DNA of 64,000 nucleotides from Gammaproteobacteria bacterium (GTDB lineage Bacteria; Pseudomonadota; Gammaproteobacteria; DATFLL01): assembly GCA_035267785.1 (NCBI GenBank), contig DATFLL010000042.1:12817-76816 (forward strand), read 5' to 3'. The position numbers and the translations under genes are program-made. Under the pieces are notes generated by a model. The model was not told the DNA's origin, searched no databases, and worked only from the letters and a program-made list of their open reading frames with translations. Below are positions 6,667 through 18,398 of the stretch, piece after piece. How positions within the stretch are numbered: position 1 is the first letter of the stretch; every line of letters starts with the position of its first letter.

Positions 6667-7602
6667 TCAGCGCACGAGGATCTGGTCGCCGTGGCCCATC
6701 TTCGGATCGGCGTCCTTGCTGAACATGATCACCGCGATGGCACCGGTCAGGGCCTGCTTCAGAGAATGGCTGACGATGGCGTTCGCGCCTTCCTTCGGCG
6801 AGATCAGATCGAAGATCGCCGCATCGCCCGGACCGACGACATAGCTCTGCATGCCGCGGAAGACGTTGTGCGGATTGCCGCTCGGATAGACCCGGTCCCA
6901 GATGCCGGCGATCGGATGGAAGGACGAGAACTCGTTCGGACCCGCATTGACGAAATAGATGCGTACGCGCTCACCCGGCTTGGCCTGCAGCCAGGTCTTG
7001 GCATTCGGATCGTGAACCGGGTCGTAGCGGAACAGTCGGCCATTGAACACGACGTATTTCCACTTGTTGGCCATCATCTCATTCTTGTCGTCGGGATGCG
7101 GGTAGATCTCCGATTGGATAAGCACGTACTCGCGATCGGCCTTGGGCATGGCCTTGGGATCCTTCGGGTCAACGATGATGACGCCGAACATACCGCGGGC
7201 GATGTGCTGGATCATCGGGTCGGCCCCGCAGTGGTAATAGAACACGCCCGGCTTCGTCGCCACGAAATCGAAGGTTTTCTGATGCCCCGGCTTGATAGGA
7301 CTGAACTCATCCACGACGCTCACGCGTGCGGCATGGAAATCGATGGAGTGCGAGTTCTTGTTGTGCTTATCGTTGATCAGGGTAAAGTGAACGGTATCGC
7401 CCTGTGTGACACGCACCACCGGTCCGGGCACCTCGCCGTCGAAGGTCCAGGTGGCGTACATGGTGCCCTTGTTGTCGATCGGCTGGTCCGTTTCCTTGGC
7501 GTGCAGCGTCACGTTGACAGTCTTGGCCGCGGCGGCCCCGCTCGCGACCAGTGCCGCCGCGAGTACGGCGGCCGTTCCCCAAAACAGCTTTCTTGTATTC
7601 AT
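6667..7602 (-). CDS. nirK: copper-containing nitrite reductase (NirK family)
   Basis: Type-2 Cu motif HSIDFHAA, type-1 Cu site YYHC...H...GMFG, and a two-cupredoxin-domain size of about 311 aa. Signal peptide after MNTRK, with RBS AGGAGA upstream of the ATG at 7602. Confidence 0.85.
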   Translation of the reverse strand: MNTRKLFWGTAAVLAAALVASGAAAAKTVNVTLHAKETDQPIDNKGTMYATWTFDGEVPGPVVRVTQGDTVHFTLINDKHNKNSHSIDFHAARVSVVDEFSPIKPGHQKTFDFVATKPGVFYYHCGADPMIQHIARGMFGVIIVDPKDPKAMPKADREYVLIQSEIYPHPDDKNEMMANKWKYVVFNGRLFRYDPVHDPNAKTWLQAKPGERVRIYFVNAGPNEFSSFHPIAGIWDRVYPSGNPHNVFRGMQSYVVGPGDAAIFDLISPKEGANAIVSHSLKQALTGAIAVIMFSKDADPKMGHGDQILVR

Positions 7603-7621
7603 GCGTTGTTTCTCCTGGTGT

Positions 7622-8011
7622 TTACTTGGAATATCCGGGCCCGCACTTGCACACAACGCGCAGGTAGCTGACCAGTTCGTGAATCTGCTTGTCGCTCAGC
7701 ACCCCCTTCCAGCTCGGCATCAAAACCGATTTATCTACGGCCAGGCCGCCCTCGCGGATGGCCGTATACAGCTCCTTGTTCGGGATATCCGTCATCCCCT
7801 TTGCGTCCGAATGGTCGCGCGGCTGAACGGACATATGAGCGGCGTTGATGCCCTTGCCGTTTCGTTTGACCCCGTGACACTGAACGCAATAGGTGTCGTA
7901 GAGACGCTTGGCCTCTGCTTGATCGCCGGCCGCGTGCGCGTCAGTGGCGGATACGGTGCAGGCCAGTAACAGCGCAGTCGCCCCGAGGGCGTGGCGTAGT
8001 TGTCGATACAT
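7622..8011 (-). CDS. mono-haem cytochrome c (class I), NcgC-like
   Basis: Signal peptide and a single CVQCHG haem-binding motif, with a distal Met-rich region. Lies directly upstream of nirK. Confidence 0.8.
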   Translation of the reverse strand: MYRQLRHALGATALLLACTVSATDAHAAGDQAEAKRLYDTYCVQCHGVKRNGKGINAAHMSVQPRDHSDAKGMTDIPNKELYTAIREGGLAVDKSVLMPSWKGVLSDKQIHELVSYLRVVCKCGPGYSK

Positions 8012-8014
8012 CGT

Positions 8015-8701
8015 CTATTCCTCCTTGCCGTCGAGTGACATCAGGTAACCGGTTAATCGACCGAGATCTCGCGACGAGAGCTCGAGCCGCGGCATCCAGA
8101 CGTGCGGGTCGAACGCCTGTGGGTTCTTGGTGTAGCTGTAGATGTAATCCGGCTGGAGCCGCGCACCCGCGTCGTAGAGTTCCGGCCCGGACACGCCCCC
8201 TTCCCCGCGCGCACTCTGGTGGCAGGCCGCGCAACCACGCAGCTTGACAAAGAACAGCTTGCCGATGCGCCCGCCGGACGCCGATTTGGGTGCCGCGCCT
8301 GTCTCGATGTGGTCCTTCGCACCATGCAGCGTCATCAGGGTGTCGGCGACGGCCCTGGCCTGGGCCCCCGACAGAGGCATGTGCCGGGCCGGCTTCTTGG
8401 CGATAGTGTCGTCCTTAACGCCGGCGGCAACGGCCTTGCGGTAGAACACGCCTGCCGGTCGAATGACCGTCGGGTGCTGCAGCCAGCGCACCAGCCATTC
8501 GCGGCGAAACTTGTCACCGGCGTAGTAAAGGTCGGGTCCCTTTCGCTGCCAGATGTGGTCCAGTCCCTGCGCGGACGGCTTCTTGACGGCGTGACACGCA
8601 ATACACTGTGCATTGATGGTCTTCCAACCGTCCGCCGCGGATGCAGCCCCACTCGCCGCCAGCATGAGGGCGAGCCCGAGCAGTGATAGTCTTGTCTTCA
8701 T
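8015..8701 (-). CDS. di-haem cytochrome c, NcgB-like
   Basis: Signal peptide plus two CxxCH motifs (CIACH and CAACH). Confidence 0.8.
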   Translation of the reverse strand: MKTRLSLLGLALMLAASGAASAADGWKTINAQCIACHAVKKPSAQGLDHIWQRKGPDLYYAGDKFRREWLVRWLQHPTVIRPAGVFYRKAVAAGVKDDTIAKKPARHMPLSGAQARAVADTLMTLHGAKDHIETGAAPKSASGGRIGKLFFVKLRGCAACHQSARGEGGVSGPELYDAGARLQPDYIYSYTKNPQAFDPHVWMPRLELSSRDLGRLTGYLMSLDGKEE

Positions 8702-8722
8702 GTTCGCTCTCTCCTGTCTTGG

Positions 8723-9759
8723 CTATTTGATGGGGACGCCCTTGAACAGCTTGTTGTCGAAGATGCCGTAACCCTTTTTCAGGGATTCTTCATAGAAGAA
8801 GTTCGGCTCGTATTTTTTGTCTTTCCAGACATACCACTTGTCATTGCGGGGTACGCCCTCGTATTCGACGATGGTGATCATGCCGCCCATGGATTTGTCT
8901 CCGTTCATCGTGTGCGAGTCGACATGGTCATGAATGATCCACCGGCCGGGGTTGTTCGCTTCGAACAGGATGTCGTATCGCTCACCCGGACCGAGCAGGA
9001 TCGTGTCGGCCTTGTAGGGATTGGGCAGGGGATGACCGTCCTTGAAGGCGACAGTGAACACGTGCCCGTGGAGGTGAATGGAATGCACCAGATCGCCGGC
9101 ACCGATGAGGCGCAGACGGACGAAATCGCCCTTCTTGACCCGAATGGGCTGGTCCTCGGGAAACGCCTTGCCGTTGATGGTGAAGTAGTCGTAGACGTCT
9201 CCCGGCACGCCGCCGTAGCCGGGCTTCTGGGCCCACTTCGAGTCCCAGTCGTTGAACATGAGCACGAAGTCCTTGGTGACCTTCTTCTCCAGGGCCGTCG
9301 GTTCCTTGGGGTCGATGATCAGCGGACCCCACATGCCGCGCAGCACCACATGCTCGTTGACGTTGACGTGGCAGTGGTACCACATGGTGCCGGCCGGTGC
9401 GGCCACGAACTTATACGTGTAGGTGTCACCGGGCTCGATCGCCGCCTGGGTGACCTTGGGCACACCGTCGTTCTTCCAGGTATTCGTCTGGAACAGGCCG
9501 TGCCAATGAATGGTGTGGGTCAGGGTGGTCAGGTTCGTCACGTGCACGGTGACTTTATCGCCCTCCTTGACATGGATGAGCGGCCCCGGGACCTGCCCGT
9601 TATAGGCGAAGGTGTGAAACTTGATGTTCCCGACCAGCGTGGCGTTGGTGTCTTCGATGGTCATGTCGAACTCGCGGTCCTGGGCACGTGCGCCCAACGA
9701 GTACGCAGACGCCCCCAAGCCGAGCAGCAGTAGCAGTGCCGTTGCATTTATCTTCTTCA
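8723..9759 (-). CDS. two-domain multicopper oxidase, NcgA-like
   Basis: Copper-ligand motifs HWHG, WYHCH, HLHGH and HDHVDSH. Signal peptide MKKINATALLLLLGLGASA. ATG at 9759 with a GGGAG RBS. Confidence 0.85.
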
Positions 9760-9789
9760 TCTCGGGCTCCCGTCTGTTAAGGATGTGTA

Positions 9790-9812
9790 AACATGTATCT
9801 GGTGTACATCTT
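9790..9812. promoter_or_regulatory. NsrR/Rrf2-type operator-like 11-1-11 inverted repeat (AACATGTATCT-G-GTGTACATCTT) in the promoter region of the MCO/cyt c/nirK cluster
   Basis: Imperfect inverted repeat resembling the enterobacterial NsrR box AAGATGCATTT-N-AAATGCATCTT, about 30-50 nt upstream of the cluster start codon. Confidence 0.4.
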
Positions 9813-9992
9813 ATAGACCGGCGGAAGGCCTTGCGCAACCATTTGTTTTTGATGGATATTTGCCCTTGCTAATATTAGGGTCTTCTAACCCATGTTATTT
9901 CAGGAAAAGCGGGACCAATTTGAATGCGCCAGGCGGGAGTGCGGGAAGATCTAAACAGCGACAGCGAAAGGAAGGGGGCGGATAAACAGAAC

Positions 9993-10023
9993 GCCCCACC
10001 TGTGAAGGTGGGGCGTTTTTTTT
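9993..10023. terminator. strong stem-loop (GCCCCACC-tgtgaa-GGTGGGGC) followed by T8 on the + strand and preceded by an A-rich tract; likely a bidirectional or DsrE-gene terminator
   Basis: Perfect 8-bp GC-rich stem with T-run, located just 3' of the minus-strand gene that ends at 10039. Confidence 0.5.
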
Positions 10024-10038
10024 GTCGTACGATTCGGA

Positions 10039-10533
10039 CTACATGCCGGCGGACTTCGGCGGTGCCGGATGGATATAGGCCCAGCCCTGCGACTCGCGCA
10101 GGGTAATCTCGCCCACACCGGACGGCACCATGGTGATGAACGAATAGAGATGCTTGCGATCGATATGCTTCTCACGCAGCGTGTTGGAGCATTGCGCCAG
10201 GATCACACCCTCCTTTTTCAGGTGCTCGAGCTTCTTCTTGAAACCGTTGTTCTTGACGTAGACGTCGAAACCGTTGCTGTTGGCCAACAGCTCGACCTGG
10301 ATATGTCCCTTGACGCGAGGGTCGTTGAGCAGGTTTTCGATGTTGTTCAGCGTCTTCTTGATCGCATGATCGCCGCCGCTGTCGAGATGGAAGATGGCCC
10401 CATACTCGTGGTGCGGGTTGGCCGGCGCGGGCGTCGAAGTGGCGGCCAGGGCCGGACCGGCGGAAAACGCCAGTGCGGCGCCGACGATGCCCGCCAGGGT
10501 CGACAGCTTGGTACGCGGTAAAATACGTTTCAT
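10039..10533 (-). CDS. periplasmic DsrE/DsrF (YchN)-like family protein, putative
   Basis: Signal peptide, about 164 aa, and a conserved Cys in the motif ILAQCSNT resembling DsrE-like sulfur-relay proteins. Family assignment is tentative. Confidence 0.45.
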   Translation of the reverse strand: MKRILPRTKLSTLAGIVGAALAFSAGPALAATSTPAPANPHHEYGAIFHLDSGGDHAIKKTLNNIENLLNDPRVKGHIQVELLANSNGFDVYVKNNGFKKKLEHLKKEGVILAQCSNTLREKHIDRKHLYSFITMVPSGVGEITLRESQGWAYIHPAPPKSAGM

Positions 10534-10803
10534 GGAATATCTCCTTTGATGGTTATTGTTAGTTTTTCGTTATTGTTTAGACGATCGATCACCCGCGTCA
10601 ATTCGAGCGCAGGCAATCTAAAATCTTTAGACCCGCCAAGTTGCCGTTTGGTTCGTACGGTAGCGGCACCAAATCGTCAGCGGTTCCGCTTGAGTCGATT
10701 CTCGGGAAAGCGGCCGAGGCCGCTGATTGGGTGGGGAAGTTCCGTGCAGGAGCCCGCGTTCGAAGCACAACGGCCGCGAAGCCGCACCGAGCCTGATGTA
10801 GCT

Positions 10804-10862
10804 TGACAATTCCTCACGGAGGCCTAGTATGAATTCCTAACATATCTTTTATATACCGCTTT
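10804..10862 (+). promoter_or_regulatory. sigma70-like promoter (TTGACA-16nt-TAGTAT) followed by a second NsrR-like 11-1-11 repeat (AACATATCTTT-T-ATATACCGCTT, 10840..10862)
   Basis: The -35/-10 hexamers match consensus. The downstream repeat shares architecture and about 16 of 22 positions with the 9790..9812 site. Lies upstream of the ferredoxin/reductase/truncated-haemoglobin fusion gene. Confidence 0.35.
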
Positions 10863-10949
10863 AAGAAGCTCCGGCCCAAGCCTGCCATGGGATAGACCCA
10901 GTATCCGTCGCCCATGCCCCGCCCGGAATCCACGTCAACCGGATGGGTC

Positions 10950-12536
10950 ATGCGTATGTCGAAACTGGTCTACAACGACGTCTCGTATGAACGGGGCAAA
11001 CACGAGTCTGTTCTGGACGCGCTACTGCGCCAAGGCGTCAACGTCCCCTTTTCCTGCCGCCGCGGCAGCTGCCAGGTCTGTCTGATGCGCGCGACGGCGG
11101 GCGACGTGCCCGAGGACGCGCAGCGCGGACTGCGCCCGGAGTTGCGTGCGTTGGGCTATTTCCTGCCCTGCCAGTGCGTGCCGGCCGGCGATTTCGACGC
11201 GGCGCCGCCGCGGGACGCGGACCTGTACGTCAAGGCCCTGGTCCACGACAAGGAGCGGGTCGCCCCCGACGTTGTCCGGCTGCTGCTCGAGGTCGGCTTC
11301 GGCTTTCATTATCGTGCCGGCCAGTTCGTCAACCTGCGCCCACCCGGCGGTCCGCCTCGCAGTTATTCATTGGCCAGCCTCCCCGAGGACTACTTCCTCG
11401 AGCTGCACGTCAAACGGATGGAAAACGGCCTGGTCAGCGGTTGGATCCACGATTCCGTGCAGATCGGCGAGGCGGTGGACATTCAGGGGCCGCAGGGCGC
11501 CAACTACTACCTCAGCGGCGACCCGACGCAGCCCCTGCTGCTGGTGGCCTCGGGTACGGGTCTGGCGCCCCTCATAGGTATCGCGCGCGACGCGCTGCGC
11601 GCCGGCCACACCGGGCCGATGCACCTCTACCACGGCGCCCACGAGGAACAGGGACTGTACCGCCATGACGAGCTCAAGGCACTGGCCCGCAAGTATCCTC
11701 AGGTCCAGTACATCCCATGCGTGTCCGGACCCGGCGGCGCCCCGCCGGAAGCCGCGGCCGGCCGGGCCGAGGACGTGGCATTCGAGCGCCAACCGGACCT
11801 GAGCGGCTGGCGTGTCTACCTGGCCGGTCCGCCGGAGATGGTCGAGAGCGGGTGCGGGCGTGCCGCGCGCGCCGGAGCGCACCCCTCGCAGATACATGCC
11901 GACCCGTTCGAGTACCGTGACCTGCGCCAAGGTGGCGTGTCGAAAGTCAGCCTGGAGGACGAACGCCGCCGCGACCCGCCACCCGACCCCGAGCTGTGGG
12001 CCGCGCTCGATGACGGCCGCCTGCTATTGGAGATACTGCGGGACTTCTATTCGCGGGTTTATGCCGACCCGCGTCTGTCTCCCTTCTTTCATGGCGTTAC
12101 CATGCAGCGTCCGATCGAAAAACAATATCTGTTCCTCAAGCAGGTGTTTTCGGGCGAGCCGGTCTATTTCGGCGACCGCCCGCGCAATGCGCACCACTGG
12201 ATGGTGATTTCCGACGATCTCTTCGACTACCGCGAGGAGCTCATGATGACGTGCGTGCGCGAGCACGGCCTGCCCGAGAATCTCGTGCGTCGATGGCGCG
12301 CCATCGAGGAGATCTACCGCCCGGATATCGTGAAATCCGCCCCCTGGACCCGACGCATCGGCGACATCGAACTGCCGGTAGAGGGCTTCGGCGAGGAATG
12401 CCTGAGCGCGGCGACGATTTGCGACGGCTGCCAGGCCGAAATCGACGCCGGCGAGACCGTGCGCTACCACCTGCGCCTGGGAACGACCTACTGCCGTGCA
12501 TGCTCGGGCGACAAACCCTTGGCCGAACGGCGCTGA
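10950..12536 (+). CDS. multidomain oxidoreductase: plant-type 2Fe-2S ferredoxin / FAD-NAD(P) ferredoxin-reductase-like domain / group II truncated haemoglobin (HbO-like) / C-terminal CxxC...CxxC zinc-ribbon
   Basis: Ferredoxin: SCRRGSCQVC...LPCQC. Reductase: RSYSLAS FAD-binding and GTGLAPL NAD-binding motifs. trHb: FYSRVYADPRLSPFF...NAHHWMVI with a proximal His. Tail: CDGC...CRAC. Confidence 0.8.
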   Translation: MRMSKLVYNDVSYERGKHESVLDALLRQGVNVPFSCRRGSCQVCLMRATAGDVPEDAQRGLRPELRALGYFLPCQCVPAGDFDAAPPRDADLYVKALVHDKERVAPDVVRLLLEVGFGFHYRAGQFVNLRPPGGPPRSYSLASLPEDYFLELHVKRMENGLVSGWIHDSVQIGEAVDIQGPQGANYYLSGDPTQPLLLVASGTGLAPLIGIARDALRAGHTGPMHLYHGAHEEQGLYRHDELKALARKYPQVQYIPCVSGPGGAPPEAAAGRAEDVAFERQPDLSGWRVYLAGPPEMVESGCGRAARAGAHPSQIHADPFEYRDLRQGGVSKVSLEDERRRDPPPDPELWAALDDGRLLLEILRDFYSRVYADPRLSPFFHGVTMQRPIEKQYLFLKQVFSGEPVYFGDRPRNAHHWMVISDDLFDYREELMMTCVREHGLPENLVRRWRAIEEIYRPDIVKSAPWTRRIGDIELPVEGFGEECLSAATICDGCQAEIDAGETVRYHLRLGTTYCRACSGDKPLAERR

Positions 12537-12544
12537 AGACCGAC

Positions 12545-13390
12545 TCAGCCGGGCAGGCGTTCCGGGTCGAGCGCACCGGACGGCTGCTCGGCTCCGGTCA
12601 CGGCCGGCCGATGCACCATGGACACGAGGATAAAGCTGATGAGCATCAGCAGATACCAGGCGACGATCTTTTGCGGCGAAACCGGTGTCCACAAACCTTC
12701 CTGCGAGGGATAGACCCACACCCGCGCGAAGGTGCCGATGTTCTCGGCAAACCAGATGAACAGGGCCACCAACAGCCAGCCCACGACCAGAGGCATGCGC
12801 CGCGGCACGGACCCGGGGGTATACCAGATCCAGGAGCGCCCGAACATCAGGACGCTGGCCGCCACCAGCCACCAGCGGATGTCATAGGTGAAGTGATGGC
12901 TGAAGAAATTGAGGTAGATGAGCGCGGCCAGGGCCCAGGTCAGCTTCACCGGCGGATAGGCCGAAAACCGGAAATCGAAGATACGCCAGATACGCGCGAT
13001 ATAGCTGCCCACGGCGCTGTACATGAAGCCCGCGAACAGCGGTACGTTGCCGATCTTGAGCACCGCCTCGCCGGGGTAATGCCAGGCGCCAATGGCGTTC
13101 GAGGTCTTGAACACCTCCATGACCATGGCCACCAGGTGGAAGACCAGAATGATCCGCGCCTCCTCCAGACTCTCCAGGCGAAAGGCGAGCAGCAGCAACT
13201 GAATAGCGACGGCCGCCAGGAAGAGAAAATCGTAGCGGTGCAGGCCCTGAAAGGGGTACCAGTAACCGGTCAGGAGGATCAGCGCAAGCAGGGTCCCGCC
13301 GAACAGGCATGCCCACGCCTGCTTCAGGCCGAACTGCCACAGCTCGATCGTAAAACCGCGCAGTGCCGCGTAGGCTGACTGTCTTGTCAT
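12545..13390 (-). CDS. DUF817-family integral membrane protein
   Basis: 281-aa polytopic membrane protein with Trp/Tyr-rich helices. Confidence 0.6.
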
Positions 13391-15692: not shown

Positions 15693-18167
15693 TCAGGCGC
15701 CGTCCGGAGCGGCTTCGGCGACAGTCGCCTCGCCGTTGGCGCGGGTGGGAGACGCGCCGGCAGGCGCCGGGTCCATCGGCGCGACGCCCATGCCCCGTTC
15801 ATAGCCGAGCGCCAGCTCGGCAAGCCGGGCGAACACACGCCGGTGCAGCGACGTCAGGGCCTCGGACAATGCCCGGCCGTATTCCGTCACACTGGCCGGC
15901 TCGTTGGGATGCAGCGCCGGCAGTTGCTCGTGCAGCTGCGCGAACACGGTGGTCTCTCCGCCGGCGTGCGAGAATGGATAGTTGATCTTCGCCAAGTCCG
16001 TCTTGATGCGCTCCAGGTGTTCGGCAAGGCCGCTCGTATCGAGGTCGGCGCCCGGACCATCGCTGTTGGGCGAAGCGTTCAGCCCGCGATTGAGCGTATG
16101 GTAGCTCTCGCCGAGCGCAGCCAACTGAGTCTGAACGGCCAACAGGCGTTCGACCTCCCGGGCGATCTCGGAGTGCTCTCCGCCCTCCTGTATGAGGCCG
16201 CCCAATGCGATGGCCAGGCGCTCGGCCAATACGGCTTCGTGACGGCTCAACGCGGCATCCAGATCGAGTCGCTGCGCTTCGAGCTCGGACGCCGGCACAC
16301 GGTCGGCGATGGGTTCCTCCAGTGAAAGGGCTGCCCCCTCAAAGCTCTGTTCACCGGCGGGGACGCTGGGCTGTTCCGCCGGATGGCGGTAGCGGTTCAC
16401 GCACCGCGCGATCTCCGGCATGTTCTCGCCGAGCCGGGCGACAAGGGCGTTGAGGCGCTCGCGCCGCGCCTCGGGGGAGAGCGCCTGGTAGTCGCGCCAG
16501 TCCTGCGGCGCGACGAAGCGGTCGGCTACGAACAACTCGCGGCAATAGTCGGACAGCACCTCGGCCTGAGTCGGCGCCTTTACCGGCGTCGCGCCGCTCG
16601 ACGGCGTCGATGAGGCCTGCGCCTCTTGCGCGGGCGCGATGCCGAGCACGCCGCGGTAGAACCCCTCGGTGATTCTGGCCGCCAGCCGATCGTATTTCTT
16701 GACTAGAGCCCGCGCCGGGATATCGAGCGTAAACGAGGCGGGCGCGTTCAACGCCTCGGCCTTTGCGATGCGCTCGGCATCCGGCGGATCGGGCGAGAAC
16801 GGATTCGCCTCTGCCGCATCGTCCTCGTCCTCTTGCGATCGAATCGTCGAGCCCGCCAGCGAGGCCAGCTCGTCCGCCCGGCGCACCATCGCTTCGGCCA
16901 GATCCTCGGGAAGCCGTCCAGGCGGACGGTCGCCGCTCATCTCGTGACGAATATCGTCGAACGCCTGCCGGAGCAAGAGCGTGCGCTCGGCCGTGGCCCG
17001 GAACTGAGCGCTGCCGGCGAGCTGGGCCTGATAGTAGTCCGCGTCGAGCGCCATTCGGCGCCGCATGCTCTGGCTCAACGGGCGACTCAGCCGGGCCAGG
17101 CCGTCCAGGGCACGACGCTGAGCTTCGAATGTCCATTCGACCGCCCGGGACAGGCTGGCAATCCAACTCACGGGATGCTCCTGCCAGGCGGCGATCGCGA
17201 CATCCCAGGCGTCGCGCTCATGGACCGCACGGTAGAGCCAGCGATGCGCCCGGCGCACGAGATGGGCGGCGCGCGCGTCCGGGCCCGGGGCAAAATTGCC
17301 GAACTCGTGCCCCAGCACCCCCACCAATTGACGGGTCGACAGCCCGGCGAGCAGCGGCATCCCGATGGTCAGCTCCAAGCCACCGCGCGAGACCTCCAGC
17401 GAGGCAGTGGGCTCGATATCCACCCAGGTACGCTCGGGGCGCGGTGCCCCGAGGGTTTCGGCAACCTGCTGCGCGAGGGCGAACAGTACGGGCTCGCGCA
17501 GCGGCTCGAGCTCGACCCGCTCGGGCGGGAGCGGCAACTTGGCCAGCACGGGTTTGAGCAGGTAGATGAACGCGACGGCGCCCAGCGCGATCGGCAGCAG
17601 ATACAGGAACCACGCGCCTATGAGCGAGCGCTGCTCCAGGTACAGCAAACCGTGGAATGCATGCCAGATCGTCGCGAAGCCGACGGCGATCACCAATAAG
17701 GCGTAAAGCGCCGGAACGACCAGGGCCCCGGACGCGGCGCCAATGAGCCCGGTGCGCCCGGCCGCACTCGGGGGCGAAGACGGCAGACGGGTGGAAAACA
17801 GGCCCGGCATATCGCCGGGGCCGAGGCGTATTCCGCCCGGGCCTCTCGACGCCTCGGCTCCGGCAGGCCGGGCATCGGGATTTGCGCTTGGGTTCGACGT
17901 CGGGCCGCCCGGCGTGGGCGAGGGGTGCGCCGGCGGCTCGGCGATGACCTCGCACACGGCGCCCGCTTCGTTGAAAATGGCTTGCAGGCGCAGGGCCTGC
18001 GCGTGGAGCAGGCCGCGTTTGACGACCACCCGCGCACCGGAGAAAAGCTTTTCGACATGATCCGATCGCAATTTCAGCGCAGCGGTTAACTGCGCCTTGA
18101 CCTGATCGGGGTCGCAGTCGGACCGTACGGTACCGTCAAACGCTACCGCGTAGCGTGGCTCGGCCAT
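15693..18167 (-). CDS. large hypothetical membrane protein with M48/M56-like segment carrying a degenerate HEXXH (HEFGN)
   Basis: 824-aa protein starting at MAEPRYAVAF. N-terminal soluble domain, Pro-rich linker, TM helices, VLGHEFGNF, and a long alpha-helical C-terminal region. Confidence 0.55.
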   Translation of the reverse strand: MAEPRYAVAFDGTVRSDCDPDQVKAQLTAALKLRSDHVEKLFSGARVVVKRGLLHAQALRLQAIFNEAGAVCEVIAEPPAHPSPTPGGPTSNPSANPDARPAGAEASRGPGGIRLGPGDMPGLFSTRLPSSPPSAAGRTGLIGAASGALVVPALYALLVIAVGFATIWHAFHGLLYLEQRSLIGAWFLYLLPIALGAVAFIYLLKPVLAKLPLPPERVELEPLREPVLFALAQQVAETLGAPRPERTWVDIEPTASLEVSRGGLELTIGMPLLAGLSTRQLVGVLGHEFGNFAPGPDARAAHLVRRAHRWLYRAVHERDAWDVAIAAWQEHPVSWIASLSRAVEWTFEAQRRALDGLARLSRPLSQSMRRRMALDADYYQAQLAGSAQFRATAERTLLLRQAFDDIRHEMSGDRPPGRLPEDLAEAMVRRADELASLAGSTIRSQEDEDDAAEANPFSPDPPDAERIAKAEALNAPASFTLDIPARALVKKYDRLAARITEGFYRGVLGIAPAQEAQASSTPSSGATPVKAPTQAEVLSDYCRELFVADRFVAPQDWRDYQALSPEARRERLNALVARLGENMPEIARCVNRYRHPAEQPSVPAGEQSFEGAALSLEEPIADRVPASELEAQRLDLDAALSRHEAVLAERLAIALGGLIQEGGEHSEIAREVERLLAVQTQLAALGESYHTLNRGLNASPNSDGPGADLDTSGLAEHLERIKTDLAKINYPFSHAGGETTVFAQLHEQLPALHPNEPASVTEYGRALSEALTSLHRRVFARLAELALGYERGMGVAPMDPAPAGASPTRANGEATVAEAAPDGA

Positions 18168-18398
18168 CGCATCCTCCGCCCGACATGGGTCTGTGCCCCC
18201 CCTTCGCGGTCCGACGTGCGCGGCACTGCCCCCAGAAAACGCCGACACGCCCTTCGCTAAATTGAACGGGATCACGGCGCGGCCGGTCAAGCGAACCGAT
18301 CCCGCAGAGCACACCGTTCGTCGGCTCGCAGAGGCCGTCCATCATCTGGTGTCGTCGACCCACCGCGAACCGGCATGTCCGGCGGTCTGAATCCGCAC

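What the first reader, a model, noticed from the sequence alone, without database searches (positions are those of the whole stretch)
10950..12536. Unusual fusion: 2Fe-2S ferredoxin / FNR-like reductase / truncated haemoglobin / Zn-ribbon (an inverted, ferredoxin-containing flavohaemoglobin analogue)
Canonical NO dioxygenases (flavohaemoglobin, Hmp) are ordered globin then FAD/NAD domain and use a 3-on-3 globin. This 528-aa protein has the opposite order. A plant-type ferredoxin (CxxxxCxxC...C) and an FNR-like FAD/NAD module (RxYS, GTGLAPL) sit upstream of a group-II truncated haemoglobin (FY...F, proximal His in NAHHWMVI). A C-terminal CxxC...CxxC ribbon is appended. A trHb with its own covalently attached two-step electron supply would be a self-sufficient NO-detoxifying or O2/NO-sensing enzyme. 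The gene lies 400 bp from the nirK cluster and shares an operator-like repeat with it.
Basis: partly seen in the sequence, partly recalled or inferred. Interest (0 to 1): 0.75.

Follow-up and report, generated by a model that had tools for sequence, protein, structure and literature searches.

The report
Self-reducing truncated haemoglobin fusion protein
This is a real 528-residue gene that joins an NAD(P)H-driven electron-supply module to a small group I haemoglobin and a zinc-finger-like tail; the family is widespread but unstudied, and in this window the gene sits behind a promoter with nitric-oxide-repressor (NsrR-type) sites, so it is most likely a self-contained nitric-oxide-destroying enzyme.

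Summary
Window 10950-12536 (+) is one uninterrupted 528-aa ORF with four Pfam domains above threshold, in the order Fer2, FAD_binding_6, NAD_binding_1, Bac_globin, followed by an invariant Cys4 tail. It is not a frameshift artefact: more than 110 database clusters and 271 species-level genomes carry the same architecture at the same length.

- The globin is group I (trHbN-like), not group II. It has an invariant Arg at position G8.
- The reductase is BenC/GcoB-type.
- The gene start is 1.2 kb from the MCO/nirK operon start, with a separate gene and a terminator in between.
- The "shared operator" holds up as an NsrR-type box, strong at the nirK-cluster promoter and degenerate at the fusion promoter.

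Stand-alone relatives carry NsrR boxes and divergent NsrR-like genes. This supports an NO-inducible, self-sufficient NO dioxygenase or reductase.

Unexpectedly, about 70-90% of relatives lie inside a conserved operon: small GTPase, Roadblock, ABC-ATPase-phosphatase and CxxCxxCC genes. The window has none of these. A sensor or signalling role therefore remains a serious rival. I found no publication describing the family. I rate it a new variant of a known kind, with moderately high interest.

The parts
10803..10830 (+). sigma-70-type promoter, TTGACA-16-TAGTAT
   Evidence: Matches 10 of 12 consensus positions (scan). It is the only + strand promoter-like site in 9700-12700.
10826..10861 (.). 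Two overlapping degenerate NsrR-type boxes (10826-10848 AGTATGAATTCCTAACATATCTT; 10839-10861 AACATATCTTTTATATACCGCTT) covering the -10 hexamer and the likely transcription start
   Evidence: A PWM trained on sites from other loci ranks them 2nd and 3rd in the whole window (21.3 and 19.3 bits; next best 12.8). Region shuffles reach this score 1/2000 times. Local shuffles reach it 1/3000 times with all columns and 65/3000 with half-sites only.
10950..12536 (+). Coding sequence of the 528-aa fusion protein (alternative start ATG 10956, 526 aa)
   Evidence: ORF list. Identical public gene call. 111-sequence alignment A2.
10956..11225 (+). Plant-type [2Fe-2S] ferredoxin domain (about residues 3-92; ligands C36, C41, C44, C74; additional invariant C76)
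   Evidence: Pfam Fer2, E 1.7e-13. Cys residues invariant in 111/111 sequences. Structural match to the N-terminal domains of GcoB and BenC.
11238..11507 (+). FAD-binding beta-barrel (residues 97-186; R137-S-Y-S140)
   Evidence: Pfam FAD_binding_6. Motif invariant. Foldseek matches 5ogx, 1krh, 4wqm.
11541..11909 (+). NAD(P)H-binding Rossmann domain (residues 198-320; G202-T-G-L-A-P207; ends with the reductase's terminal aromatic F320)
   Evidence: Pfam NAD_binding_1. Residue conservation. pLDDT above 90.
11910..11984 (+). Flexible interdomain linker (residues 321-345), variable in length and sequence, ending in the conserved P-D-P-E-x-W pre-A motif
   Evidence: pLDDT below 50 for residues 324-338. 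Region rich in indels in alignment A1.
11985..12335 (+). Group I (trHbN-like) 2-on-2 globin domain (residues 346-462): B10 Y367, CD1 F380, E7 P388, E10 K391, E11 Q392, F8 H415, G8 R428
   Evidence: Pfam Bac_globin. PDB sequence hits are group I first. In Foldseek, the top 28 hits are all group I, with target-normalised TM mostly 0.7-0.86 and rmsd mostly 2.2-3 A. Residue counts.
12345..12509 (+). C-terminal beta-rich Cys4 module (residues 466-520: C491-x2-C494 ... Y506-H507-x-R509-x-G511 ... C515-x2-C518), zinc-ribbon/treble-clef-like, metal unknown
   Evidence: All listed residues invariant in 111/111 sequences. Beta strands in both models. Only sub-threshold matches to Zn-finger families.
9790..9812 (.). 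Strong NsrR-type box (AACATGTATCTGGTGTACATCTT; on the minus strand AAGATGTA-N7-TACATGTT) upstream of the MCO/cyt c/cyt c/NirK-like operon
   Evidence: One mismatch to AAGATGTA-N7-TACATCTT. Best PWM score in the window, 24.5 bits. Matches the experimentally validated A. baumannii NsrR box (PMC11836069).
6667..9760 (-). Neighbouring operon, context only and not part of the protein: two-domain multicopper oxidase, dihaem cytochrome c, cytochrome c, NirK-like Cu nitrite reductase
   Evidence: Pfam and NCBIfam results. Public gene calls.

Best explanation
The gene encodes a self-sufficient, NO-inducible haem enzyme, functionally analogous to flavohaemoglobin but built from different parts.

Proposed electron path: NAD(P)H gives a hydride to FAD (residues 97-320). 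FAD passes single electrons to the N-terminal plant-type [2Fe-2S] cluster (C36/C41/C44/C74), as in BenC, T4moF and the P450 reductase GcoB. The cluster reduces haem b in the group I truncated-haemoglobin domain (proximal H415), which is tethered by a roughly 25-residue flexible linker.

Proposed chemistry: the ferrous-oxy haem converts NO to nitrate (NO dioxygenation). Without O2 it may reduce NO. Distal Tyr B10 and Gln E11 act as in M. tuberculosis HbN. The family-specific invariant Arg at G8 could stabilise an anionic intermediate or product. The Cys4 tail is probably a structural metal site that travels with this globin subtype.

Proposed regulation: transcription starts from a sigma-70 promoter overlapped by NsrR-type operators. 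The gene would then be derepressed by NO or nitrite stress together with the adjacent NsrR-boxed MCO/cyt c/NirK operon, which produces NO.

Shown here: the domains, the cofactor-ligand residues, the folds, the promoter, the operator-like sites and the NsrR linkage in relatives. Inferred: cofactor loading, the electron path, NO chemistry, and actual NsrR binding.
For: - Domain annotation is above threshold.
- All cofactor ligands and motifs are invariant in 111 homologues.
- The full-length model has pLDDT 88, with a disordered linker.
- The N-terminal 320 aa match GcoB (E 1e-30, 33% identity), BenC, CarAd and T4moF.
- The C-terminal model matches only truncated haemoglobins, group I first. The profile aligns gap-free to Paramecium and Tetrahymena trHbN, which fixes the B10/E7/E11/F8/G8 positions.
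- NsrR evidence. Only 8 boxes with 3 or fewer mismatches occur in 1.15 Mb of related loci. Four of them lie 55-120 nt upstream of the fusion gene in the four stand-alone loci, including the window's closest homologue (L083). One is the window's nirK-cluster promoter.
- Divergent Rrf2 genes that score best as NsrR sit next to the fusion gene in L020, L033 and L162.
- The window's own promoter holds the 2nd and 3rd best PWM hits of the 64 kb.
- Literature: a Legionella glbN plus ferredoxin-reductase operon is predicted to be the sole NsrR target and Hmp-like (PMC1274295). FNR-type reductases are proposed as donors for trHbs (PMC3820574).
Against: - No biochemical data exist for any member.
- In 41 of 46 metagenome loci and 43 of 62 genome loci with enough flank, the gene sits in a small-GTPase/Roadblock/ABC-phosphatase/CxxCxxCC operon. 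That context points to signalling, not detoxification.
- The window's operator sites are degenerate: 5 mismatches to the 16-position consensus. With half-site columns and local background, 65 of 3000 shuffles reach their score.
- No nsrR gene is present in the 64-kb window.
- The PWM rests on five training sites.
- G8 Arg has no counterpart in characterised NO-dioxygenating trHbN proteins. E7 is Pro in this protein.
- About a dozen cluster-less loci, mostly Myxococcota, show no NsrR box.
Confidence: 0.5

Rival explanations
1. The protein is a redox or gas (O2/NO/NADH) sensor, or an accessory subunit, of a small-GTPase signalling system. Haem ligation or oxidation state is kept poised by the built-in reductase and read out by protein-protein contact, perhaps through the Cys4 tail, with Roadblock, GTPase or ABC-phosphatase partners. 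The window's copy would be an orphan that works with partners encoded elsewhere, or has been re-used.
For: - A conserved same-strand operon occurs in most relatives: a ~210-aa protein, small GTPase, ABC_tran-PTPase, a ~140-aa protein, Roadblock, CxxCxxCC, the fusion, a ~210-aa protein, Roadblock.
- Stand-alone and operon copies are intermixed in the tree, so they are the same kind of protein.
- Actinobacterial G-protein systems carry cytochrome P450-type accessory proteins proposed to act as sensory inputs (PMC13343842).
- HD-GYP or PAS-GGDEF genes lie next to some operons.
Against: - None of the operon genes is in the 64-kb window.
- Stand-alone copies, including the window's, are tied to NsrR, the classic regulator of NO-detoxifying enzymes.
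- A complete NAD(P)H-FAD-[2Fe-2S] chain implies sustained turnover, which a sensor does not obviously need.
- No interaction data exist.
Confidence: 0.28
2. The protein is a self-sufficient haem oxygenase or reductase for another small substrate, with the trHb domain acting as the catalytic terminal component of a BenC/GcoB-like system. Candidate reactions are nitrite or hydroxylamine conversion, peroxide or peroxynitrite removal, or oxygenation of an anionic organic compound.
For: - The nearest structural relatives of the reductase feed oxygenases, including a haem P450.
- An invariant Arg at distal position G8 and an invariant Lys at E10 suggest binding of an anion.
- The gene neighbours a nitrite-reducing operon.
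Against: - No catabolic or substrate-transport genes recur next to the gene in 160 loci.
- The NsrR linkage fits NO best.
- I know of no truncated haemoglobin acting as a dedicated monooxygenase (own knowledge).
Confidence: 0.15
3. The ORF is an artefact (two genes joined by a sequencing or assembly frameshift), or the globin part is degenerate and does not bind haem.
For: None found. The F-helix region has low model confidence (pLDDT about 50-60), which is usual for apo-globin models.
Against: - The same continuous architecture and length occur in more than 110 clusters, 271 genomes and 293 metagenome stretches.
- F8 His, B10 Tyr, CD1 Phe and E14 Phe are invariant in 111/111 sequences.
Confidence: 0.02

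Closest known systems
Flavohaemoglobin (Hmp / FHb), the canonical NO dioxygenase
   Same: One polypeptide combines a globin with an FNR-type FAD/NAD(P)H module. Hmp is the typical NsrR-regulated gene (PMC1274295). The FAD/NAD part is homologous: NCBIfam NF009805 matches residues 120-320, and Foldseek hits 1gvh and 4g1v.
   Different: The order is reversed, with the reductase first. The globin is 2-on-2 group I, not 3-on-3. An extra [2Fe-2S] ferredoxin domain sits in the electron path, and there is an extra Cys4 tail. The Hmp model scores 76 bits against a cut-off of 432, so the protein is not a member.
Legionella pneumophila glbN-lpg2536 operon (trHbN plus ferredoxin reductase, predicted sole NsrR target)
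   Same: A group I truncated globin is paired with an FNR-family reductase under an NsrR box, and the pair is proposed to oxidise NO like Hmp (PMC1274295; PMC3820574).
   Different: That system is two separate genes and is itself only a prediction. Here the partners are covalently fused, with a ferredoxin domain and a Cys4 tail. I did not compare the sequences with lpg2536.
Mycobacterium tuberculosis HbN and other group I truncated haemoglobins (Paramecium, Tetrahymena, Chlamydomonas THB1, Synechocystis GlbN)
   Same: 2-on-2 fold (target-normalised TM mostly 0.7-0.86), Tyr B10, Phe CD1, Gln E11, His F8, and a non-polar E7 as in HbN. Lys at E10 as in THB1.
   Different: G8 is an invariant Arg, where these proteins have Val or Ile. 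The F-helix motif RPRNAHHWMVIS is family-specific. The globin carries a C-terminal Cys4 module and is fused to its reductase. Sequence identity is 16-29%.
BenC / GcoB / T4moF / CarAd-type three-domain reductases (N-terminal plant-type ferredoxin, FAD, NAD)
   Same: Same domain order, motifs and fold for residues 1-320. GcoB likewise reduces a haem protein directly.
   Different: Those reductases are separate proteins serving Rieske, diiron or P450 oxygenases. All NCBIfam equivalog scores are far below cut-off (best is PRK05713, 166 bits against 338). Here the chain continues past the terminal aromatic residue into a globin.
Eukaryotic trHbN-reductase pairings: raphidophyte nitrate reductase with an inserted 2/2 HbN, and Chlamydomonas THB1 reduced by nitrate reductase
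   Same: A group I truncated globin receives electrons from an FNR-superfamily flavin domain for NO dioxygenation (PMC3820574; the THB1-nitrate reductase link is from my own knowledge).
   Different: Those are eukaryotic proteins embedded in a molybdenum nitrate reductase, with no [2Fe-2S] domain and no Cys4 tail.
Cytochrome P450-type accessory proteins (CvnE) of actinobacterial G-protein systems (conservons)
   Same: A haem protein is encoded inside an operon with a Ras-like GTPase and Roadblock/MglB-type proteins and is proposed to act as a sensory input (PMC13343842). This parallels the majority context of this family.
   Different: The haem fold differs. The actinobacterial operons have a histidine kinase, not an ABC-ATPase-phosphatase. 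The analogy applies to relatives, not to the window's stand-alone copy.

Membership tests
Group I truncated haemoglobin (trHbN) | 2-on-2 alpha-helical fold most similar to group I structures | tested here: met
   Foldseek on the C-terminal model: ranks 1-28 are all group I (1dlw, 1idr, 1dly, 3aq5, 6cii ...), with target-normalised TM mostly 0.7-0.86 and rmsd mostly 2.2-3 A. PDB sequence and profile hits are group I first.
Group I truncated haemoglobin (trHbN) | Proximal His F8, Tyr B10, Phe CD1, and a polar E11 and/or E7 | tested here: met
   H415, Y367 and F380 are invariant in 111/111 sequences. E11 is Gln in this protein (Q57/V54 across the family). E7 is Pro here (L/S/A/V in relatives), non-polar as in Mtb HbN.
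Group I truncated haemoglobin (trHbN) | Small hydrophobic residue (Val/Ile) at G8 lining the distal cavity | tested here: not met
   R428 aligns with Val or Ile of GlbN, Paramecium and Tetrahymena trHbN and is Arg in 111/111 sequences. I therefore file the domain as a distinct group I-like subtype.
Group I truncated haemoglobin (trHbN) | Binds haem b | not testable with these tools
   Inferred only from the conserved pocket residues.
   G8 is Arg. The best group II hits are much weaker: 2bkm at E 1e-3 and 1ux8 at 3e-3, against 1e-8 for group I. Group II first appears at Foldseek rank 29.
BenC-type ferredoxin-FNR reductases | N-terminal plant-type [2Fe-2S] motif C-x4-C-x2-C-x29-C | tested here: met
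   C36, C41, C44 and C74 are invariant. Pfam Fer2 hit.
BenC-type ferredoxin-FNR reductases | FAD motif R-x-Y-S, NAD(P)H motif G-x-G-x-x-P, and the three-domain fold | tested here: met
   RSYS at 137-140 and GTGLAP at 202-207. Foldseek matches 5ogx at E 1e-30, plus 1krh, 7c3a and 4wqm.
BenC-type ferredoxin-FNR reductases | Membership of a named equivalog (BenC, MmoC, AntC, PRK05713 ...) | tested here: not met
   All scores are far below the curated cut-offs, for example 166 against 338, 146 against 430 and 143 against 500.
Flavohaemoglobin (Hmp) | N-terminal 3-on-3 globin followed by the FAD/NAD module, with no Fe-S domain | tested here: not met
   The order is reversed, the globin is 2-on-2 and a ferredoxin domain is present. 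NF009805 scores 76 bits against a cut-off of 432, covering the reductase part only.
NsrR regulon | NsrR-type inverted repeat (AAGATGYAT-N-ATRCATCTT) overlapping the promoter | tested here: inconclusive
   Two degenerate boxes lie at 10826-10861 on the -10/+1 region. They rank 2nd and 3rd of the window by PWM. Shuffle controls range from 1/3000 to 65/3000. A strict consensus search allowing 3 mismatches finds nothing. Boxes are clear in the stand-alone relatives L020, L012, L033 and L083.
NsrR regulon | An NsrR repressor encoded in the genome and binding the site | not testable with these tools
   No Rrf2 gene is in the 64-kb window, and the rest of the genome is not available. NsrR-like genes lie next to the fusion gene in L020, L033 and L162.
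Zinc ribbon / treble-clef Cys4 fingers | Two CxxC knuckles on beta hairpins | tested here: met
   C491-x2-C494 and C515-x2-C518 are invariant. Beta strands span about 480-507 in the models.
Zinc ribbon / treble-clef Cys4 fingers | Significant match to a curated Zn-finger family or a solved finger | tested here: inconclusive
   The best hit is the RUFY1 FYVE finger at E 0.007. Pfam matches to zf-HYPF, zf-dskA_traR and Zn_Ribbon_1 are all below threshold. The metal, Zn or Fe, is unknown.
Small-GTPase/Roadblock/ABC-phosphatase operon (majority context of the family) | Fusion gene flanked on the same strand by GTPase, ABC-PTPase, Roadblock and CxxCxxCC genes | tested here: not met
   tblastn of all operon proteins against the window gives no hit except one marginal ABC P-loop match. 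The window's copy is stand-alone.

The most novel reading that the evidence does not exclude
The family is the haem/redox input or output component of a previously undescribed small-G-protein signalling operon found mainly in Proteobacteria. The operon comprises a Ras-like GTPase, several Roadblock proteins, an ABC-ATPase fused to a dual-specificity phosphatase, and a CxxCxxCC protein. It would be a Gram-negative counterpart of the actinobacterial conservons with their P450 accessory proteins. It would couple NO/O2/NADH status to GTPase signalling. Stand-alone NsrR-controlled copies such as the window's would be derived spin-offs.
Probability: 0.3. Interest if true: 0.8.

Novelty: new variant of a known kind. 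Interest (0 to 1): 0.6.

Why it matters
The physiological reductase of truncated haemoglobins has long been uncertain (discussed in PMC3820574). A natural, widespread fusion of a group I truncated globin to a complete NAD(P)H-FAD-[2Fe-2S] chain acts as a Rosetta-stone answer. It points to ferredoxin/FNR-type donors and gives a single-polypeptide system in which electron delivery to a 2-on-2 haem can be measured directly.

The fusion would also be a second, independently assembled solution to the flavohaemoglobin problem, with a different globin fold, the opposite domain order and an added Fe-S relay. It occurs in sulfur- and iron-oxidising, denitrifying and predatory bacteria from sediments and groundwater, where NO turnover affects N2O and nitrate budgets.

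The invariant distal Arg (G8) and the Cys4 tail define a new globin subtype. The tight synteny with a GTPase/Roadblock/phosphatase operon in most carriers hints at an unexplored link between haem-based NO/O2 chemistry and bacterial small-G-protein signalling.

Tried and rejected
- **Frameshift or two-gene artefact:** rejected. The architecture is continuous in hundreds of homologues.
- **Group II assignment:** rejected.
- **Exact or near-exact k-mer comparison of the two promoter regions:** it found only a chance-level 13-mer, 9848 against 10545. That first led me to reject the shared operator. The PWM test later showed a degenerate shared NsrR-type box.
- **Strict NsrR consensus search with 3 or fewer mismatches:** 0 hits in the window.
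- **tblastn for NsrR, FNR and NorR in the window:** nothing.
- **Conservation of the window's neighbours in relatives:** NirK, MCO, the cytochromes, the 164-aa protein and DUF817 are not conserved next to the gene in any of 80 genome loci.
- **Two deep paralogous subfamilies (operon-type against NsrR-type):** rejected by the NJ tree. L033 is sister to L009 from the same MAG.
- **Anti-phage defence role for the operon:** PADLOC gives only generic ABC P-loop hits.
- **Identification of the Cys4 tail:** no significant family.
- **Literature:** searches for a described reductase-trHb fusion found none. The A. baumannii "novel hemoglobin" (PMC11836069) is a 3-on-3 globin lacking a reductase, so it is a different protein.
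- **AFDB50 fold search:** unavailable.
Full report

Yes. Window 10914-12536 (+) is a single ORF. From the ATG at 10950 it encodes 528 aa, identical to the public gene call HKK05063.1, annotated "2Fe-2S iron-sulfur cluster-binding protein" in a Gammaproteobacteria MAG. An ATG at 10956 (526 aa) aligns better with the MPxLxY start of homologues.

Pfam finds four domains, all above the gathering thresholds: Fer2 (residues 11-78), FAD_binding_6 (97-186), NAD_binding_1 (198-300) and Bac_globin (361-444). The ORF is not a frameshifted pair of genes. The first protein search returned over 110 clusters of 517-560 aa with the same four domains at 50-65% identity. 271 species-representative genomes and 293 metagenome stretches encode relatives.

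In a 111-sequence alignment the following are invariant or nearly so:
- the 2Fe-2S ligands C36, C41, C44 and C74
- RSYS (137-140) and GTGLAP (202-207)
- F320, the reductase's terminal aromatic residue
- the globin residues Y367, F380, K391, F395 and H415
- the four C-terminal Cys (491, 494, 515, 518), together with Y506, H507, R509 and G511

**2. What the parts are**

*Reductase.* The full-length AlphaFold model is confident (mean pLDDT 88.4). It has a disordered linker at 324-338 and a pTM of 0.61, as expected for loosely coupled domains. Residues 1-320 match three-domain reductases with an N-terminal plant-type ferredoxin: GcoB, a P450 reductase (E 1e-30, 33% identity), BenC, CarAd and T4moF. 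NCBIfam gives the same picture, but every equivalog score is far below its cut-off. It is a reductase of that class but not an orthologue of any named one.

*Globin.* The C-terminal 189 residues were modelled separately (pLDDT 82). They match only truncated haemoglobins. Ranks 1-28 are all group I (Paramecium, M. tuberculosis HbN, Chlamydomonas, Tetrahymena, Shewanella), with target-normalised TM mostly 0.7-0.86 and rmsd mostly 2.2-3 A. Group II first appears at rank 29. Sequence searches agree.

*Haem pocket.* The family profile aligns without gaps over 112 residues to Paramecium and Tetrahymena trHbN. This fixes B10 = Y367, CD1 = F380, E7 = P388 (L/S/A/V in relatives), E10 = K391, E11 = Q392 (Q or V across the family), F8 = H415 and G8 = R428. 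Arg at G8 is invariant in 111 of 111 sequences, whereas the solved group I proteins have Val or Ile there. This is a family-specific peculiarity of the distal pocket.

*Cys4 tail.* The last ~60 residues form beta hairpins with two CxxC knuckles. They match no curated family. The best hits are a FYVE finger at E 0.007 and sub-threshold zinc-ribbon models. "Zinc-ribbon-like" is a fair description, but the metal is unknown.

*The globin and tail form a module.* An exhaustive search with the globin-plus-tail region found 88 clusters at 50% identity with E below 1e-30. In nearly all of them the module sits at the C-terminus of ~510-545-aa proteins. A few are apparently complete 185-215-aa proteins consisting of the globin and tail alone. 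The tail therefore belongs with this globin subtype, and the pair was fused to a reductase.

**3. Surroundings in the window**

Upstream on the other strand lies a two-domain multicopper oxidase (8723-9760), a dihaem cytochrome c, a cytochrome c, and a NirK-like Cu nitrite reductase (TIGR02376 at 203 bits, below the cut-off of 296). From my own knowledge, this is the gene order of the Nitrosomonas ncgABC-nirK cluster.

Between that operon and the fusion gene sits a separate 164-aa secreted protein gene with no family match, and a bidirectional terminator at 9988-10019. The fusion gene start is therefore 1.2 kb from the start of the nirK operon, not 400 bp.

The fusion gene has its own sigma-70 promoter, TTGACA-16-TAGTAT, at 10803-10830. 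Downstream, convergent, is a DUF817 gene.

**4. The operator claim**

My first tests argued against it. The only near-exact shared word was a chance-level 13-mer. The strict NsrR consensus gave no hit. No NsrR, FNR or NorR gene is in the window.

Related loci changed the picture:
- Two stand-alone relatives (L020, L033) have a divergent Rrf2 gene about 41% identical to E. coli NsrR. These genes score best as NsrR in NCBIfam (136 and 119 bits, below the equivalog cut-off, with RirA close behind and IscR far lower). A third case appeared in the metagenome sample (L162).
- A scan for AAGATGTA-N7-TACATCTT with 3 or fewer mismatches over 1.15 Mb of loci found only 8 sites. Four lie 55-120 nt upstream of the fusion gene in the four stand-alone loci (L012, L020, L033 and L083, the last being the window's closest homologue). 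One is the window's MCO-nirK promoter at 9790-9812, with 1 mismatch.
- The consensus equals the experimentally validated A. baumannii NsrR box (PMC11836069).
- A PWM trained only on the five sites from other loci ranks 9790 first in the 64-kb window (24.5 bits). Two overlapping sites at 10839 and 10826 come second and third (21.3 and 19.3 bits; next best 12.8). Both cover the -10 hexamer and the expected transcription start of the fusion promoter.
- Shuffle controls give 1/2000 (region), 1/3000 (local core, all columns) and 26-65/3000 (half-site columns only).

It is strong at the nirK operon and degenerate but probably real at the fusion gene.

**5. The unexpected majority context**

Clustering the flanking ORFs of the 80 genome loci showed a recurrent same-strand gene set around the fusion gene. 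Public gene calls for three close relatives give the full order:
- a ~210-aa protein with no Pfam match
- a small Ras/ATP_bind_1-type GTPase
- an ABC-ATPase fused to a dual-specificity protein phosphatase
- a ~140-aa protein with no Pfam match
- a Roadblock/LC7 protein
- a CxxCxxCC (PF03692) protein
- the fusion gene
- a second ~210-aa protein
- a second Roadblock/LC7 protein

Among loci with at least 2.5 kb of upstream flank, 43 of 62 genome loci and 41 of 46 metagenome loci have the GTPase and/or the ABC-phosphatase. Most exceptions are Myxococcota, whose contexts vary and include kinases.

None of these genes occurs anywhere in the window. In a neighbour-joining tree, stand-alone copies nest among operon copies. 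L033 (next to an NsrR-like gene) is sister to L009 (in the operon), and both come from the same MAG. The same kind of protein is therefore used in both settings.

PADLOC shows no link to defence systems. A survey of prokaryotic small GTPases does not mention a globin or reductase partner (PMC4316618). [quoted passage not shown] A few operon-type loci carry weaker NsrR-like boxes ahead of the operon or ahead of the Roadblock gene that precedes the fusion. This is suggestive only.

**6. How it most likely works**

For the window's copy I favour a self-sufficient NO-detoxifying enzyme:
- NAD(P)H reduces FAD.
- FAD passes single electrons to the [2Fe-2S] cluster.
- The cluster reduces haem b of the tethered trHbN domain.
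- Fe(II)-O2 plus NO gives nitrate. Without O2, NO may be reduced.
- Expression is derepressed by NO through NsrR, alongside the neighbouring NirK operon, which produces NO.

The domains, ligands, folds, promoter and operator-like sites are shown here. Cofactor loading, the electron path, the chemistry and NsrR binding are inferred.

Precedents for the logic: flavohaemoglobin; the predicted NsrR-controlled glbN plus ferredoxin-reductase operon of Legionella (PMC1274295); and the proposal that FNR-type proteins are the native donors of truncated haemoglobins, including a raphidophyte nitrate reductase-trHbN fusion (PMC3820574).

The main rival is a redox or gas-sensing role within GTPase signalling. 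It rests on the strong synteny in relatives and cannot be dismissed. It may be the ancestral role.

**7. Novelty and verdict**

I found no paper describing this architecture. Database names are generic or automatic, for example JGI's [quoted passage not shown], and all carriers seen are MAGs or metagenome contigs. From memory, later globin censuses list some chimeric truncated globins. I could not verify whether this one is among them.

The concept of a globin fused or paired with an FNR-type reductase for NO dioxygenation is known. New here are the reversed order, the added ferredoxin domain, the group I globin with Arg at G8, the Cys4 tail, and the GTPase-operon association. I classify it as a new variant of a known kind, with moderately high interest (0.6).

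Noticed in passing
window 6667-9812 (- strand): An operon of a two-domain multicopper oxidase, a dihaem cytochrome c, a cytochrome c and a NirK-like nitrite reductase. The order matches the Nitrosomonas ncgABC-nirK cluster, but the MAG is a GC-rich gammaproteobacterium. It is preceded by the best NsrR-type box in the window (9790-9812). NirK scores 203 bits on TIGR02376, below the cut-off of 296.
   Followed up: partly
L001:2900-10700, L085:2856-9673, L086, L087 and about 84 further loci: A conserved roughly nine-gene operon: a ~210-aa protein, small GTPase, ABC-ATPase-dual-specificity phosphatase fusion, a ~140-aa protein, Roadblock, CxxCxxCC, the reductase-globin fusion, a ~210-aa protein, Roadblock. 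It occurs in Thiobacillus, Gallionellaceae, Rhodocyclaceae, Acidiferrobacterales, Methylococcales and others. I found no description of it. It is sometimes flanked by HD-GYP or PAS-GGDEF genes.
   Followed up: partly
proteins P0133, P0175, P0203, P0212, P0214: Apparently complete 185-215-aa proteins consisting only of this globin subtype and the Cys4 tail. The globin-plus-tail module therefore exists without the reductase.
   Followed up: partly
proteins P0128 (1882 aa, 12 globin stretches), P0147, P0217, P0240: Very long proteins made of many tandem truncated-globin domains turned up as distant hits. Their origin and function were not examined.
   Followed up: no
window 10039-10533 (- strand) and 9988-10019: A 164-aa protein with a signal peptide and no Pfam or NCBIfam family lies between the nirK operon and the fusion gene. 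It is followed by a strong bidirectional terminator hairpin.
   Followed up: no
window 15693-18314 (- strand): A large ORF (873 aa as listed, 824 aa in the public call) with no Pfam or NCBIfam match.
   Followed up: no
L009 and L033 (same MAG, JAHENE01): One genome carries two closely related copies of the fusion gene. One is inside the GTPase operon. The other is stand-alone, next to a divergent NsrR-like gene with an NsrR box. This looks like recent duplication with a change of regulation.
   Followed up: partly
window 10950 vs 10956: There are two in-frame ATG codons. Homologues and some JGI calls (526 aa) favour 10956, with a GGATGGG Shine-Dalgarno-like element 7 nt upstream. The NCBI call uses 10950.
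   Followed up: partly
L162:~2480-2560: A perfect NsrR half-site (AAGATGTATTATT, minus strand) after a TTGACA box lies upstream of the fusion gene. The PWM missed it because two masked N bases interrupt the site.
   Followed up: partly
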